Shown here: piece after piece, positions 13,724 through 54,401 of the stretch
Layout: the number at the start of each line of letters is the position of its first letter
How positions within the stretch are numbered: the stretch's first letter is position 1
Source: Ruminococcus sp.
GTDB taxonomy: Bacteria > Bacillota > Clostridia > Oscillospirales > Ruminococcaceae
Direction: 5' to 3'
NCBI GenBank assembly: GCA_017461395.1
Contig: JAFTYF010000025.1
Location: 13,713 to 77,712, forward strand
DNA length: 64,000 bases
Position numbers and translations under genes: made by a program
Notes under the pieces: generated by a model
The model's input: only the letters and a program-made list of their open reading frames with translations
The model's database searches: none
What the model was told of the DNA's origin: nothing

Positions 13724-14083
13724 GTAGGGACGAACTTTGTTTTTAATTCGGAATGCGGAATTCGGAATTCGGAATTATGGTGTCAGCATTCGCCGACGTA
13801 TTAAAAATATTTCCGCCCATGATGTTTCATCGGAAATTATGCGGGACGTCGAGGACGCCGTCCCCTACAATCGGTCATTTAAGATTACCGTTGATATTAT
13901 GTAGGGGCGAACCCATGTGTTCGCCCTTTTCAACATCATACAGAAGCGTGTTGGGTGCAGCGTCACGCAATATAAAATCACCCGCCGCCGGAATTTTTGC
14001 CGCGAGCGAAAGCAGATTTTTTCCGCCGCAGAGAGTAGTGCGCAAAGCGCACGGGAACGTGGAACGGGGGCACCGCTGGTGCC
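13724..14083. repeat. Mosaic intergenic repeat (heptamer tract, GTAG REPs, palindromes)
   Basis: (aattcgg/aatgcgg)n, REPs at 13843-13868 and 13901-13926, gggtgcagcgtcacgc 13953-13968, ggcaccgctggtgcc 14069-14083; each module recurs elsewhere in the window. Confidence 0.8.
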
Positions 14084-21934: not shown

Positions 21935-24565
21935 TTGCTTTATCAGGATAATTCTAAAGTAATAAATACCGAGCTTGTTGATGAAATGGAAAATTCCATG
22001 CTTCATTACGCAATGTCGGTAATCGTATCACGAGCTCTTCCGGATGTAAGAGACGGATTGAAGCCTGTTCACAGAAGAATTCTGTATACGCTTCACGAAA
22101 ATGGACTTACACCCGAAAAGCCCTACAGAAAATGCGCTGATACCGTAGGTGCCGTTCTTGGACGATATCATCCTCACGGCGACGCTTCCGTATACGACGC
22201 ACTTGTACGTCTTGCACAGGACTTTTCACTGAGATATCCCCTTGTTGACGGTCACGGAAACTTCGGCTCTATCGACGGCGACGGCCCTGCGGCTTACCGA
22301 TATACCGAGGCTAAGATGAAAAAACTTACCCTCGATATGCTCACCGATATCAATAAGGATACCGTTGATTTCACATCAAACTATGACGACCGTCTTAAAG
22401 AACCTGTTGTTCTGCCGTCAAGATTCCCGAATCTTCTCGTTAACGGCTCTGTCGGTATCGCCGTAGGTATGGCTACAAATATTCCTCCCCACAATCTCGG
22501 AGAGGTAATCGACGCACTCCGCCTGCTTATCGAGGATCCCGACTGCTCCCTTGAACAGCTTATGGAGCACATTCAGGGACCTGACTTCCCTACCGGCGGA
22601 ATTATCATGGGCAAGGCTGGAATTCGTGCCGCTTATGCTACAGGAAAGGGAAAGATAACTCTCCGCAGCCGTACACATTTTGAGGAAATAAAGGGCAGAA
22701 ACTGCATTATTATCGACGAAATCCCCTATATGCTGAGGAAAGAACGCCTCATCAAGAGCATAAACCAGCTTGCAAGAAGCAAGAAAATTGAGGGACTTTA
22801 CGATCTCCGTGACGAATCCGACAAGGACGGCATGAGAGTTGTTATCGAGCTGAAAAAGGATGCAGTTCCGCAGATAGTACTTAACAAGCTTTTTGCGCTC
22901 ACACAGCTTCAGGATACAGTAGGAATCATCATGCTTGCTCTCGTAAACGGCGAGCCTAAGGTACTTACGCTCAAGAGTATGCTCCAGCATTACCTTGATT
23001 TTCAGGTTGAGGTAATTCAGCGCAGAACACGCTTTGATCTCCGCAAGGCTCTCGAAAGAGCTCATCTTTTACAGGGCTTCGTGCTTGCCGCTGACTACAT
23101 CGACGAGGTAATTGCGATTCTCCGTTCAAGCTCAACGATAGCAGAGGCAAAAGAACGCATGATAGAGCGCTTCAAGGATGTGGATATGTCCGCACTTCTT
23201 GACCGTGCACAGTACGATTTCACCGGACTTCACCTCGAAAAGCAGACCGGACTTTCACAGGAACAGGCAGAAGCTATCGTTCAGATGCGTCTCGGACAGC
23301 TCACAGGTCTTGAAAGACAGAAAATTACTGACGAACTCTACGGAATCCTTACAAAAATCTCTGATTATGAGGATATTCTTGCCGATATCAACCGTGTTTA
23401 CGGCATAATCATGGATGATCTCGACGCTATCCGCAAGAAGTTCAGCGACAAGAGAAGAACTGACATCGAAGCTGTCAGCGGTGAGGTTGATATTGAGGAT
23501 CTCATCCCTGAGGAGGACTGCGTTGTAACTCTCACAAACAACGGATATATCAAGAGAATGCCCGTTACTGAGTACAAGACTCAGAGGAGAGGCGGCAGAG
23601 GTATCACCGGCATGAAGCAGCGTGAAGAAGATTTCGTTGATGAAATGTTCATCTGCGGATCGCATGATAATATCCTTTTCATCTCGAATAAGGGTATCAT
23701 GTACAAGCTGAAATGCTATGAAATTCCGGACGGCTCAAAGGCTTCAAGAGGCTTTAATCTGATAAATCTCATTCCTCTGACAGAGGGCGAGAAGATAGCC
23801 GCAATGATAAAAACGACAGATTTCAGCGATGATAAATTTATCACTATCGTTACAAGAAACGGCAAGATCAAGAGATCAAACCTGTCGCTTTACAAGAATG
23901 TCCGCAAAAATGGTCTTATCGCTATCGGACTTGACGAGGGCGACGAGATTGCCGGCGTAAGAATGACCGACGGAAAACAGCAGATTTTCGTGGCAACTCA
24001 CAACGGTATGGTCATCCGCATCGAGGAGGAAAAGGGACGCTCAATGTCACGTTCTGCTCACGGCGTAAAGGCTATAAGACTGCGTGAGGGCGACTATGTT
24101 GTCGGAATGGCTAAGGTTCGTGAGGGAGCTTCGCTTCTCACGATAACTGAAAACGGCTACGGAAAGAGGACGGAAATTGACAGTTACCGCATCCAGAACA
24201 GAGGCGGCTATGGTCTGACGAACTACAAGGTTGACGATGTTCGAGGATACGTCTGCGGAATCAAGATAGTTGACGAGGAGGACGATATTATCCTCGTTTC
24301 AAGCGACGGAATCATTATCAGAATCCTTGCAAGCGATATCAGAATTATGGGAAGAATCGCAAAGGGTGTTCGTGTAATGAGAGTTACCGACGGCGCAAAG
24401 GTCGTTGCGTTCACAAGAGCTGAGCACGATGATAACGCTGAAACTGAAAAGGTCGAGCAGCTTACTGAGGAGCAGATCCGTGAAGCTGAGGCTGAGGCAG
24501 CTCTTGAGGAGCAGAATGAAGTTATAATCGAAGCAGAACCCGACGATGACGAAGAGATAGAATGA
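21935..24565 (+). CDS. gyrA: DNA gyrase subunit A
   Basis: TTG start; RALPDVRDGLKPVHRR, AAYRYTE catalytic Tyr, GyrA-box QRRGGRG, acidic tail. Confidence 0.97.
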   Translation: MLYQDNSKVINTELVDEMENSMLHYAMSVIVSRALPDVRDGLKPVHRRILYTLHENGLTPEKPYRKCADTVGAVLGRYHPHGDASVYDALVRLAQDFSLRYPLVDGHGNFGSIDGDGPAAYRYTEAKMKKLTLDMLTDINKDTVDFTSNYDDRLKEPVVLPSRFPNLLVNGSVGIAVGMATNIPPHNLGEVIDALRLLIEDPDCSLEQLMEHIQGPDFPTGGIIMGKAGIRAAYATGKGKITLRSRTHFEEIKGRNCIIIDEIPYMLRKERLIKSINQLARSKKIEGLYDLRDESDKDGMRVVIELKKDAVPQIVLNKLFALTQLQDTVGIIMLALVNGEPKVLTLKSMLQHYLDFQVEVIQRRTRFDLRKALERAHLLQGFVLAADYIDEVIAILRSSSTIAEAKERMIERFKDVDMSALLDRAQYDFTGLHLEKQTGLSQEQAEAIVQMRLGQLTGLERQKITDELYGILTKISDYEDILADINRVYGIIMDDLDAIRKKFSDKRRTDIEAVSGEVDIEDLIPEEDCVVTLTNNGYIKRMPVTEYKTQRRGGRGITGMKQREEDFVDEMFICGSHDNILFISNKGIMYKLKCYEIPDGSKASRGFNLINLIPLTEGEKIAAMIKTTDFSDDKFITIVTRNGKIKRSNLSLYKNVRKNGLIAIGLDEGDEIAGVRMTDGKQQIFVATHNGMVIRIEEEKGRSMSRSAHGVKAIRLREGDYVVGMAKVREGASLLTITENGYGKRTEIDSYRIQNRGGYGLTNYKVDDVRGYVCGIKIVDEEDDIILVSSDGIIIRILASDIRIMGRIAKGVRVMRVTDGAKVVAFTRAEHDDNAETEKVEQLTEEQIREAEAEAALEEQNEVIIEAEPDDDEEIE

Positions 24566-38337: not shown

Positions 38338-38505
38338 ATAATTCGGAATTCGGAATGCGGAATTCCGAATAATGGTGTCGGCATTCGCCGACGGATTGAA
38401 ATGTTATACCAAATATAAAAAATGATTGATTGTAGGGGACGGCGTCTCGACGTCCCACAAAATAAACCGTAATAATGACGGGCGGATGTGGACATCTGCC
38501 CCAAT
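38338..38505. repeat. Heptamer tract plus inverted REP pair
   Basis: aattcggaattcggaatgcggaatt..ggtgtcggcattcgccgacg; REP 38432-38456; inverted REP 38480-38505. Confidence 0.78.
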
Positions 38506-48324: not shown

Positions 48325-48349
48325 CATTACAGGAGATAATAGTTACTGT

Positions 48350-48593
48350 CAGTATGTCGATAAATTATAAAAACAAACAATAGTGGGTTTCCAAAGGGTT
48401 GATAACCCTTTGGCGGAGTCCAGAGGCAGCGCCTCTGGTGGGGTGCGGGGTGAAACCCTGCTGTTGCCTTAGAAGCGCTTCGCAAGGGGTGAATTTCAAA
48501 ACAGTCCGGTGGACTGTTTTGAAAGAGGGGACGCCTTGCAAGTGAAGGCGTCCCCTACAAAACTGCCTTGCTTGTAACTTTTTCGACAATCTG
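48350..48593. mobile_element. MITE copy 1 (244 bp)
   Basis: 15-bp imperfect TIRs cagtatgtcgataaa / tttttcgacaatctg; 21-bp flanking direct repeats; homologous to 52903-53205; no coding capacity. Confidence 0.75.
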
Positions 48594-48635
48594 ACAGGAG
48601 ACATAAGCTCCTGTATATTAAAGGAGGAAAATCTT

Positions 48636-51821: not shown

Positions 51822-52874
<1,053 letters not shown>

Positions 52875-52902
52875 TTTTTACAGGGCGGTCAATGACTGCA
52901 CA

Positions 52903-53205
52903 GAGATTGTTGAAAAATTATATAAACAAATAATTATGGGATTCCAAAGGGTTTATAACCCTTTGGCGGAGTCCAGAGGCAGAGCCTCTGGCAGGGTGTG
53001 GGGTGCGGGTGTCCAGTGGACACCTCTGCGAAGCAGAAGCACCGACCGAACCGACAGGTGAGATTCAGCGTCCCACATTTGCCTTAGAAGCGCTTCGCAA
53101 AGGGTGAATTGAAAAACAGTCCGGTGGACTGTTTTTCAAGAGGGAACGCCTTGCAAGTGAAGGCGTTCCCTTAAAACATCTTGCTTGTATTTTTTCGACA
53201 GACTG
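52903..53205. mobile_element. MITE copy 2 (303 bp)
   Basis: TIRs gagattgttgaaaaa / tttttcgacagactg; 21-bp flanking direct repeats; same internal hairpins as copy 1 plus an extra internal module. Confidence 0.78.
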
Positions 53206-53258
53206 AGGGCGGTCAATGACCGCCCATTGCGCTATACTAAGAGTAAAGGAGTGCCGGA

Positions 53259-54401
53259 ATGAAAATTACTTTTGACGCTGTTCCGCTTATCGCTGACAAG
53301 ATAACAGGAATCGGCTGGTGTGAAGCCGGTCAGACCATGAAGCTTGCAGAGCTTTATCCCGAAAACCGCTGTGAATACAGCTTTTTCGCTGACCGCAAAG
53401 GAAATGCTGTACGGCAGATAAAGCAGTTTTCCGGCAAAAATATCAAGCTGAATACGTCGCGCTTCCCGAAAAAACTGTACAGACTGCTGTCGGTGCTTCT
53501 TCCGGTGCCGTACTCTGCATTTTTTGGGAAAAAGTCCGATATCACGCACTTTTTCAACTATATCATTCCGTCCGGAGTCAAGGGAAAAACTGTAGTTACC
53601 GTTCATGATATGGTCTATAAGGCTTTTCCGGAGACTGTCAGGGGACGTACACGCTTCATGCTCGACGCCGGACTGAAAAAGTCCCTGAAACGTGCGGATA
53701 TCATCGTTACCGACTCAGAATTTTCACGCACTGAGATAGTTAAATATTTCCCGTGGTGCGAAAATAAGCTCAGAGTTGTGCCGTGCGGGGTTGATACTGA
53801 GAGATTCCACCCGTGCGGTGATTCGCAGAAAATTGCCGATGTAAAGGCGTCTCTCGGCATTGAGGGAGACTATTTCCTCTACCTCGGAACTATTGAGCCG
53901 AGAAAAAATCTGGAGCGCCTTATTTCGGCATACAATGCCTTTTCAAAGAAAGTCAGCAATCCCCCGAAGCTCGTGCTTGCCGGCGGAAAAGGCTGGCTGT
54001 ATGACGGAATTTTCAGCCGTGTGAAGTCTCTCGGACTGGAAGATAAGGTTATTTTCACGAAATACGTCCCTTCCGAGGACATGAACGCTCTCATGTGCGG
54101 TTCGCTGGCATTTGTATTTCCGTCGCTCTACGAGGGTTTCGGTATGCCGCCGCTTGAGGCTATGGCTTGCGGAGTTCCGGTGCTTGTATCGGGGGCTGCT
54201 TCGCTTCCGGAGGTAACAGGCGACTGTGCTGTTATCGTTGATCCCTATGATGTGAAGAGCATTGCACGAGGATTATACAGACTGTATACAGATGAAGCTC
54301 TCCGATGTGATCTCAGCAGACGTGGAATTGAACGTGCAAAGGGATTCACATGGGACAGATCTGCACAGATGCTTCACGACATCTACAAGGAGTTGGTATA
54401 A
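53259..54401 (+). CDS. Glycosyltransferase family 4 (WbpY/MtfB-like)
   Basis: TVHDM, GTIEPRKN, SLYEGFGMPPLEAMACG. Confidence 0.88.
   Translation: MKITFDAVPLIADKITGIGWCEAGQTMKLAELYPENRCEYSFFADRKGNAVRQIKQFSGKNIKLNTSRFPKKLYRLLSVLLPVPYSAFFGKKSDITHFFNYIIPSGVKGKTVVTVHDMVYKAFPETVRGRTRFMLDAGLKKSLKRADIIVTDSEFSRTEIVKYFPWCENKLRVVPCGVDTERFHPCGDSQKIADVKASLGIEGDYFLYLGTIEPRKNLERLISAYNAFSKKVSNPPKLVLAGGKGWLYDGIFSRVKSLGLEDKVIFTKYVPSEDMNALMCGSLAFVFPSLYEGFGMPPLEAMACGVPVLVSGAASLPEVTGDCAVIVDPYDVKSIARGLYRLYTDEALRCDLSRRGIERAKGFTWDRSAQMLHDIYKELV

What the first reader, a model, noticed from the sequence alone, without database searches (positions are those of the whole stretch)
52882..53226. MITE family that appears to target and duplicate terminator hairpins
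Copy 2 (303 bp) repeats the pattern of copy 1 at an unrelated target. It is flanked by agggcggtcaatgactgcaca (52882-52902) and agggcggtcaatgaccgccca (53206-53226), 19/21 identical. The right copy is a perfect hairpin (gggcggtca-a-tgaccgccc) and the left is decayed. Two different 21-bp palindromic targets, both just after stop codons and both degraded on the upstream side, imply structure-directed insertion with a long target duplication. They may also imply selection to lose the upstream hairpin. Copy 2 carries an extra internal module of about 60 bp (gtgtccagtggacac..ccgacaggtgaga), so the family is modular. The TIRs and palindrome targeting are reminiscent of IS1182-family elements (from memory, untested). 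It lies inside the polysaccharide operon and could tune downstream GT expression.
Basis: partly seen in the sequence, partly recalled or inferred. Interest (0 to 1): 0.7.

Follow-up and report, generated by a model that had tools for sequence, protein, structure and literature searches.

The report
Hairpin-duplicating IS1182-type miniature transposon
This is a 303-bp gene-less mobile element in a Ruminococcus genome that landed on a 21-bp DNA palindrome and left a copy of it on each side; the behaviour is real and proven by empty sites, but it is already on record for the IS1182 family.

Summary
Window 52903-53205 is a 303-bp ORF-less element with imperfect terminal inverted repeats. It is flanked by 21-bp repeats at 52882-52902 and 53206-53226 (19/21 identical). 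Copy 1 (48350-48593) has the same layout. A sister genome, G014, carries both sites empty with exactly one intact palindrome, so the whole palindrome was duplicated on insertion.

The proposed parent also holds. IS1182-family insertion sequences in 13 of 61 genomes of the genus end in CAGTCTGTCGAAAAA. This is identical over 15 nt to the right end of copy 2. Their transposases score 399-403 bits against NCBIfam NF033551 (cut-off 270).

Of 82 such ends, 59 abut a perfect hairpin, against 1-2% of random positions. Twenty complete elements carry 19-28-bp duplications that track the palindrome length. One of these is a 1538-bp IS with a 28/28 duplication.

- Decay on the upstream side is not general. 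Half the duplications are perfect, and either side can decay.
- The two window targets lack T-runs, so they are not classical terminators.
- No partner transposase is found in this assembly.

Hairpin targeting by IS1182 elements is published, so this is a new member of a known kind.

The parts
52882..52902 (+). Left (upstream) copy of the 21-bp target duplication of copy 2, with two changes (C>T, C>A) in the 3' arm
   Evidence: The G014 empty site has a single AGGGCGGTCAATGACCGCCCA. The same decayed left copy is present in G077 (L109).
52903..53205 (+). MITE copy 2, 303 bp, no ORF, made of a chain of hairpins
   Evidence: The RNA fold gives z = -10.4. The boundaries are fixed by the empty site.
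52903..52917 (+). Left terminal inverted repeat, GAGATTGTTGAAAAA
   Evidence: It resembles the second (IRR) ends of the genus IS1182 elements, CAGACTGTCCAAAAA and CAGCTTGTCAAAAAA.
53003..53066 (+). 64-nt extra module, absent from copy 1 and from the orthologous MITE in G077
   Evidence: The module also occurs alone elsewhere.
53191..53205 (-). Right terminal inverted repeat. It reads CAGTCTGTCGAAAAA on the minus strand, 15/15 identical to the left end of IS1182-family elements of the genus.
53206..53226 (+). Right (downstream) copy of the target duplication. It is an intact palindrome, identical to the ancestral empty site.
48329..48349 (+). Left copy of the target duplication of copy 1, with five changes
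48350..48593 (+). MITE copy 1, 244 bp, with ends CAGTATGTCGATAAA and TTTTTCGACAATCTG
   Evidence: The site is empty in G014 and G077.
48594..48614 (+). Right copy of the target duplication of copy 1, an intact palindrome ACAGGAG-acataag-CTCCTGT
51837..52873 (+). Upstream gene, GDP-mannose 4,6-dehydratase, interrupted by an in-frame TAG at 52632-52634
53259..54401 (+). Downstream gene, a GT4-family glycosyltransferase

Best explanation
The element is a non-autonomous miniature transposon (MITE). It is moved in trans by a DDE transposase of the IS1182 family that circulates in this Ruminococcus genus.

The transposase recognises the 15-nt ends (consensus CAGnYTGTCGAAAAA). It picks its target by structure, not sequence: a short palindrome that can extrude as a hairpin or cruciform. 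The two strands are attacked within 0-4 nt of the two feet of the palindrome. Gap repair then copies the whole palindrome to both sides, so the duplication length (19-28 bp) is set by the palindrome and not by a fixed ruler.

Shown here:
- the ends;
- the empty sites;
- the hairpin adjacency;
- the long duplications in both MITEs and full-length IS;
- the family of the transposase.

Inferred:
- the cruciform geometry;
- mobilisation in trans;
- the left copies in the window decayed neutrally because one of two redundant copies is free to drift.

The two window copies are probably immobile now, because the assembly holds no partner transposase.
For: Empty sites with one intact palindrome stand at both loci in G014, and at site 1 in G077.

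Pfam DDE_Tnp_1_6 hits occur in 13 of 61 genomes of the genus. The proteins carry DUF772, DDE_Tnp_1 and DDE_Tnp_1_6 domains. They score 399 and 403 bits on NCBIfam NF033551 'IS1182 family transposase', cut-off 270.

These IS begin CAGTCTGTCGAAAAAG and end ...GGACAGACTG. That is a 15/15 match to the right end of copy 2. The pattern CAGNYTGTCGAAAAA has about 128 hits in 33 of 61 genomes, against 17 for the reversed control.

Of 82 ends, 59 abut a perfect hairpin of stem 6 or more within 3 nt. Random positions do so 1.1-2.4% of the time.

Of 37 elements with an identifiable second end, 20 have 19-28-bp flanking duplications covering a palindrome; the null rate is 1.5%. One is a 1538-bp IS with a 475-aa transposase and a 28/28 duplication.

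Published precedent exists. IS1272/TnSha1 target hairpins (PMC4923244, PMC5678879). The model in PMC5678879 includes whole-stem-loop duplication as pathway b. ISCbo5 sits in hairpins at gene ends in Clostridium (PMC3098183).
Against: No IS1182 transposase is found in G000 (Pfam search; tblastn at E<=1) or in G014. Mobilisation in this lineage therefore rests on inference; the assembly is 93% complete and IS copies often fail to assemble.

Only the 15-16 terminal nt are shared between the MITE and the IS.

Seventeen of 37 related elements show no long duplication. One short copy in G000 (C43) has only a 7-bp TTTTTAC repeat at a non-palindromic site.

Some full IS (L019, L020) are flanked by two different hairpins.

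Cruciform attack is a geometric inference with no biochemical support here.
Confidence: 0.88

Rival explanations
1. The element is a REP/BIME-like mosaic of palindromic units spread by a Y1 (RAYT, IS200/IS605-type) transposase. The flanking hairpins would be further REP units and not target duplications.
For: The interior is a chain of hairpins. One of them (TTGTAGGGGACGCC...GGCGTCCCC on the minus strand of copy 1) carries the GTAG-plus-palindrome signature of REPs. Similar units are scattered through the window and genome without TIRs.
Against: No Y1 transposase (PF01797) is found in the genome. The empty sites show that each flanking pair derives from one pre-existing, site-specific palindrome. 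The element has DDE-type TIRs identical to IS1182 ends.
Confidence: 0.03
2. The MITE is moved by another DDE family known for long duplications (IS1202/ISNCY at 24-29 bp, or the IS1634 group), and the IS1182 end match is coincidental.
For: Long duplications are typical of those groups (recalled from ISfinder, not tested). No partner is present in G000.
Against: Complete elements with the same ends and 28-bp hairpin duplications encode a transposase that passes the IS1182 equivalog. The same protein scores only 68-73 bits on the ISNCY model, cut-off 325. The 15/15 end match has a low background.
Confidence: 0.03
3. This is an add-on to the main explanation. The decay of the upstream hairpin copy is selected, for example to avoid a second structure right after the stop codon or to stop precise excision. 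The element has been domesticated to tune expression of the downstream gene.
For: In both window copies and in one G014 copy (L015), the copy nearer the upstream gene is the decayed one. The two changes at site 2 are shared with G077, so they are old. The downstream copy is identical to the ancestral site, and at site 1 the stem is conserved in G014 and G077 while the loop varies. The element folds very stably.
Against: Half of the long duplications in the genus are perfect, and either side can be the worse hairpin. L115, of the same family and orientation, has the right copy decayed. The changes are mostly GC>AT, as in neutral decay.
Confidence: 0.12

Closest known systems
ISCbo5 (also called ISBma2-like), IS1182 family, in Clostridium botulinum group III and C. 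novyi-NT (PMC3098183)
   Same: It is an IS1182-family DDE element in Clostridia. All but one of its insertion sites are inverted repeats forming hairpins at gene ends, and the element is 'surrounded' by the hairpin.
   Different: That work describes full-length IS only. It gives no MITE derivatives and no rule linking duplication length to palindrome length. I did not compare sequences with it.
IS1272 and TnSha1 of staphylococci, IS1182 family (PMC4923244, PMC5678879)
   Same: The target is chosen by hairpin structure without a sequence consensus, often at terminators after genes. The published model includes whole-stem-loop duplication as an alternative pathway.
   Different: IS1272 deletes or replaces the stem-loop and leaves no duplication. 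Here the stem-loop is kept and duplicated (21-28 bp).
MITEPye1 with ISPye18, IS1182 family, Paracoccus yeei (PMC11578231)
   Same: It is an ORF-less element whose TIRs match IS1182-family ends. It is intergenic, folds into stem-loops, and is presumed to be mobilised in trans.
   Different: MITEPye1 has 4-bp direct repeats and no reported hairpin duplication.
IS1397 / ISKpn1 (IS3 family), which insert in REP palindromes (recalled, not tested here)
   Same: They insert specifically into extragenic palindromes.
   Different: They belong to a different transposase family, insert in the loop, and make a short duplication.

Membership tests
MITE derived from the IS1182 family | Terminal inverted repeats that match the ends of IS1182-family insertion sequences | tested here: met
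   The right end CAGTCTGTCGAAAAA is 15/15 identical to the left end of the IS in L020, L023 and L093. The pattern is enriched about 128 to 17 over the control.
MITE derived from the IS1182 family | The partner element encodes an IS1182-family transposase | tested here: met
   NF033551 scores 399.4 and 403.4 bits against a cut-off of 270. Pfam finds DUF772, DDE_Tnp_1 and DDE_Tnp_1_6.
MITE derived from the IS1182 family | Small size with no transposase ORF | tested here: met
   The copies are 303 and 244 bp. Only chance ORFs overlap them.
MITE derived from the IS1182 family | Target-site duplication created on insertion, with an empty site available | tested here: met
   A single palindrome stands at both empty sites in G014 and at site 1 in G077.
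MITE derived from the IS1182 family | A partner transposase in the same genome | tested here: not met
   No PF13751 hit and no tblastn hit at E<=1 in G000. A partner is present in 13 of 61 genomes of the genus. The assembly is 93% complete.
MITE derived from the IS1182 family | Mobilisation in trans by that transposase | not testable with these tools
   This needs a transposition assay.
Hairpin-targeting subgroup of IS1182 (ISCbo5-like) | Insertion sites are palindromes or hairpins, with the element bracketed by the hairpin | tested here: met
   59 of 82 ends abut a perfect hairpin, against 1-2% of random positions. Twenty elements have 19-28-bp palindrome duplications.
IS1272-type stem-loop-replacing transposition | The target stem-loop is deleted and no target duplication is left | tested here: not met
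   Here the stem-loop is retained and duplicated.
REP/BIME with RAYT | A Y1 (IS200/IS605-like) transposase in the genome, and no TIRs or target duplication | tested here: not met
   PF01797 is absent. TIRs and a target duplication are present.
IS1202/ISNCY long-duplication elements | An ISNCY/IS1202-type transposase associated with the ends | tested here: not met
   The ISNCY model NF033593 scores 68-73 bits against a cut-off of 325 on the partner transposases.

The most novel reading that the evidence does not exclude
In this Ruminococcus IS1182 clade the transposase may attack an extruded cruciform, so that an ordinary short stagger across the four-way junction becomes a duplication as long as the palindrome. 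This would be the mirror image of IS1272's hairpin deletion.

Two further oddities would then be part of the mechanism:
- In one element (L074), the two flanking copies are each perfect palindromes that differ only by two compensatory base pairs. This looks as if each single-stranded hairpin in the gapped intermediate was corrected against itself.
- The closer relative G014 has a clean empty site, while the more distant G077 shares the insertion. This looks like precise excision through the long repeats.
Probability: 0.2. Interest if true: 0.55.

Novelty: new member of a known kind. Interest (0 to 1): 0.3.

Why it matters
The finding is a clean, well-controlled example of structure-directed transposition, with two empty sites and about 20 sister elements. 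It covers MITEs, full-length IS and cargo-carrying derivatives, all in a gut and rumen genus that is rarely studied for mobile DNA.

It has practical uses:
- It explains many contig breaks and many hairpin-rich intergenic repeats in Ruminococcus MAGs.
- It warns annotators that duplicated hairpins around such elements are not independent terminators.
- It offers a natural series of targets (palindromes of 15-28 nt) for testing how a DDE transposase measures its stagger on a cruciform.

It does not reveal a new principle. Hairpin targeting by IS1182 elements is already published.

Tried and rejected
- An Rfam scan of the region and of loci holding the 64-nt module found nothing above noise. The element is therefore not a known structured RNA.
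- A search of 61 genomes of the genus for this family's specific right end (TTGCTTGTAN{1,2}TTTTTYRACA) hit only G000. That sub-terminal sequence is species-specific, so I switched to the 15-nt TIR pattern.
- A strict TIR-pair scan in G000 found only copy 1. The other families in the window (REP-like units, AATTCGGAAT heptamers) are a separate matter and were not pursued.
- The consensus promoter/terminator scan flagged nothing persuasive inside the element.
- I considered and dropped the idea that the left-copy changes were made at insertion, for example by deamination of the single-stranded gap. The strand predicted to be exposed at the left flank does not fit C>T on the plus strand, and GC>AT drift explains the changes.
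- The RAYT and IS1202 hypotheses were tested and rejected.

Full report
**1. What is in the sequence**

Window 52903-53205 is a 303-bp stretch with no real ORF. It lies between a GDP-mannose 4,6-dehydratase gene, whose stop codon is at 52871-52873, and a GT4 glycosyltransferase gene that starts at 53259. It begins GAGATTGTTGAAAAA and ends TTTTTCGACAGACTG, which are imperfect inverted repeats.

The element is bracketed by agggcggtcaatgactgcaca (52882-52902) and agggcggtcaatgaccgccca (53206-53226). These are 19/21 identical, and the right one is a perfect palindrome.

A second copy at 48350-48593 (244 bp) lies between spo0A and a flavin-reductase-like gene. It is bracketed by acaggagataatagttactgt and acaggagacataagctcctgt, which are 16/21 identical.

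The two copies align at about 88%, apart from a 64-nt insertion in copy 2 at 53003-53066. As RNA the region folds far better than shuffled sequence, with z = -10.4. Rfam has no matching family.

**2. Empty sites**

The window is contig C9 of a 2.08-Mb, 80-contig assembly. Its relatives are Ruminococcus MAGs from gut samples.

In the sister genome G014 the flanks of both sites are 93-97% identical to the window. In each case the two flank alignments overlap by exactly 21 nt. Reading the DNA gives these empty sites:
- Site 2: ...ggctgatttttac AGGGCGGTCAATGACCGCCCA tttgcaat...
- Site 1: ...aattt ACAGGAGACATAAGCTCCTGT ataaaagg...

Each is one intact palindrome with no element. Site 1 is also empty in G077, the genome of the Ruminococcus sp. 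MAG with accession prefix JAZNBR, where the stem is the same and the loop differs.

So the 21-bp repeats are true target duplications of a whole palindrome. The right copy is the ancestral sequence, and the left copy has since changed at 2 and 5 positions.

**3. The partner transposase**

Pfam DDE_Tnp_1_6 is found in 13 of 61 genomes of the genus, though not in G000 or G014. The proteins are 474-476 aa and carry DUF772, DDE_Tnp_1 and DDE_Tnp_1_6 domains. They pass the NCBIfam equivalog for IS1182-family transposases at 399 and 403 bits, cut-off 270. No other family model reaches its cut-off.

These IS begin CAGTCTGTCGAAAAAG and end ...GGACAGACTG. The first 15 nt are identical to the right end of copy 2 read on the minus strand.

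The pattern CAGNYTGTCGAAAAA occurs about 128 times in 33 of 61 genomes, against 17 for the reversed control. Many hits lie about 125 nt from contig ends, as expected of multicopy IS that break assemblies.

**4. Hairpin targeting is general in this clade**

I fetched 80 loci around such ends. Of 82 ends, 59 have a perfect hairpin with a stem of 6 or more ending within 3 nt of the element, and 51 have a stem of 8 or more. Random positions reach only 1.1-2.4% and 0.2-0.8% respectively.

Of 37 elements where a second end could be found, 20 carry a flanking duplication of 19-28 bp. Flanks taken from other loci give such a score in 1.5% of trials. Ten of these duplications are perfect. The elements with long duplications include:
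- MITEs of 140-240 bp from several families;
- a complete 1538-bp IS with a 475-aa transposase and a 28/28 duplication (L093);
- two 2.15-2.2-kb elements that carry cargo instead of a transposase.

The duplication always covers a palindrome of 15-28 nt and exceeds it by only 0-6 nt. The stagger is therefore set by the structure.

About 14 of the 20 targets have an adjacent T- or A-run, which makes them terminator-like. About 5 carry the GTAG/CTAC mark of REP-like units. The two window targets have neither.

**5. How it most likely works**

Shown:
- a DDE transposase family with these ends;
- structure-based target choice;
- duplication of the entire palindrome.

Inferred:
- The palindrome extrudes as a cruciform. 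This brings its two feet together, so the two strand transfers fall a few nt apart in space but a whole palindrome apart in sequence.
- Gap repair then yields a copy on each side. This is pathway b of the model drawn for IS1272 in PMC5678879.
- The MITE is mobilised in trans.

G000 has no IS1182 transposase by Pfam search or by tblastn at E<=1. The window copies are therefore probably fossils, unless an IS lies in the unassembled part.

**6. The claimed upstream decay**

In the window the left copy is the decayed one at both sites. At site 2 the same two changes are present in G077, so they are old.

The pattern does not hold more widely. Half the duplications are perfect, and in the imperfect ones either side can be the poorer hairpin. 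L115, of the same family and orientation, has the right copy decayed.

Five of the seven changes in the window are GC>AT. The simplest reading is neutral drift of one of two redundant copies. The other copy stays constrained: the stems at site 1 are conserved in G014 and G077 while the loop varies. A selected loss remains possible but unsupported.

**7. Modularity**

The 64-nt module of copy 2 is absent from the orthologous MITE at the same gmd site in G077. There a clean hairpin gtgggac-agc-gtcccac stands in its place. The module therefore came or went after insertion, possibly by conversion from a module-bearing copy such as G000:C24.

The module also occurs alone in other contexts and other genomes. 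Copies of the interior without TIRs exist in G000 (C54, C49), as do fragments (C17, C78).

**8. Rivals**

A REP/RAYT system is contradicted by three findings: the empty sites, the TIRs, and the absence of any Y1 transposase. An IS1202/ISNCY partner is contradicted by the family scores.

**9. Comparison with what is known**

Hairpin targeting is published for several IS1182 members:
- ISCbo5 in Clostridium sits in hairpins at gene ends and is 'surrounded' by them (PMC3098183).
- IS1272 and TnSha1 in staphylococci target hairpins but delete them and leave no duplication (PMC4923244, PMC5678879).
- Both staphylococcal papers cite the Siguier et al. review for palindrome targeting in the family.
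- IS1182-derived MITEs are also known; MITEPye1 has 4-bp repeats (PMC11578231).

My recollection that ISfinder lists direct repeats of 0-60 bp for this family was not checked. Earlier notes of this scan report the same behaviour in many other genomes. I used them only as a lead to PMC3098183, which I then read.

**10. Verdict**

The element is a new member of a known kind. It is well documented here but not surprising to a transposon specialist. Interest is 0.3.

Noticed in passing
window 52632-52634: The GDP-mannose 4,6-dehydratase gene (51837-52873) carries an in-frame TAG where the G014 orthologue has TGG (Trp). Both halves still match the Pfam family. It is a nonsense mutation, a pseudogene in the making, or a MAG consensus error.
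   Followed up: partly
window 53003-53066; G000:C78:16679-16743; L121-L132: The 64-nt module (GTGCGGGTGTCCAGTGGACACCTCTGCGAAGCAGAAGCACCGACCGAACCGACAGGTGAGATTC) is conserved at 91-100% across species and in another family of the order. It sits in unrelated contexts, some bracketed by their own long inverted repeats. In G000:C78 it lies about 80 nt upstream of a NikA/MobC-like mobilisation gene, an oriT-like position. It has no Rfam match.
   Followed up: partly
L099 (G014:C27:23308-25460) and L107 (G070:C26): These are 2.15-2.2-kb elements with IS1182-type ends and 24-25-bp hairpin duplications. In place of a transposase they carry a sigma-70 (regions 2 and 4) gene and a gene with a weak, sub-threshold DUF4179 match.
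   Followed up: partly
L074 (G072:C13, about 23500-23763): The two flanking copies of a 140-bp MITE are both perfect palindromes but differ at two base pairs, both changes compensatory (CCCCCTGACAT.. versus AACCGCTGACAT..). No explanation was tested. Self-templated correction of hairpins in the gapped intermediate is one idea.
   Followed up: no
G014:C119 versus G077:C4 (L002, L109): G014, whose flanks are 96-97% identical to the window, lacks the MITE at the gmd site. G077, at 90-92%, has it with the same decayed left copy. This implies precise excision, recombination of the polysaccharide locus, or discordant ancestry.
   Followed up: partly
L019 (G015:C11) and L020 (G009:C216): These full-length IS1182 elements are flanked by two different perfect hairpins and not by a duplication. 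In L019 another element's end abuts the same hairpin from the other side. This points to recombination between copies or repeated use of one hairpin.
   Followed up: no
G022:C8:1422-19373 (L101, L102): Two ends about 18 kb apart carry the same flanking hairpin in reverse-complement orientation, as expected of an inversion between two copies of the element.
   Followed up: no
window 1881-38505 (for example 13889-13926, 38414-38459): The window and genome are rich in REP-like units (GTAGGGGCG...CGCCCC), AATTCGGAAT heptamer runs and GGCACCGCTGGTGCC hairpins. Similar REP-like palindromes are frequent targets of the IS1182-type elements in sister genomes. No Y1 transposase is present in G000.
   Followed up: partly
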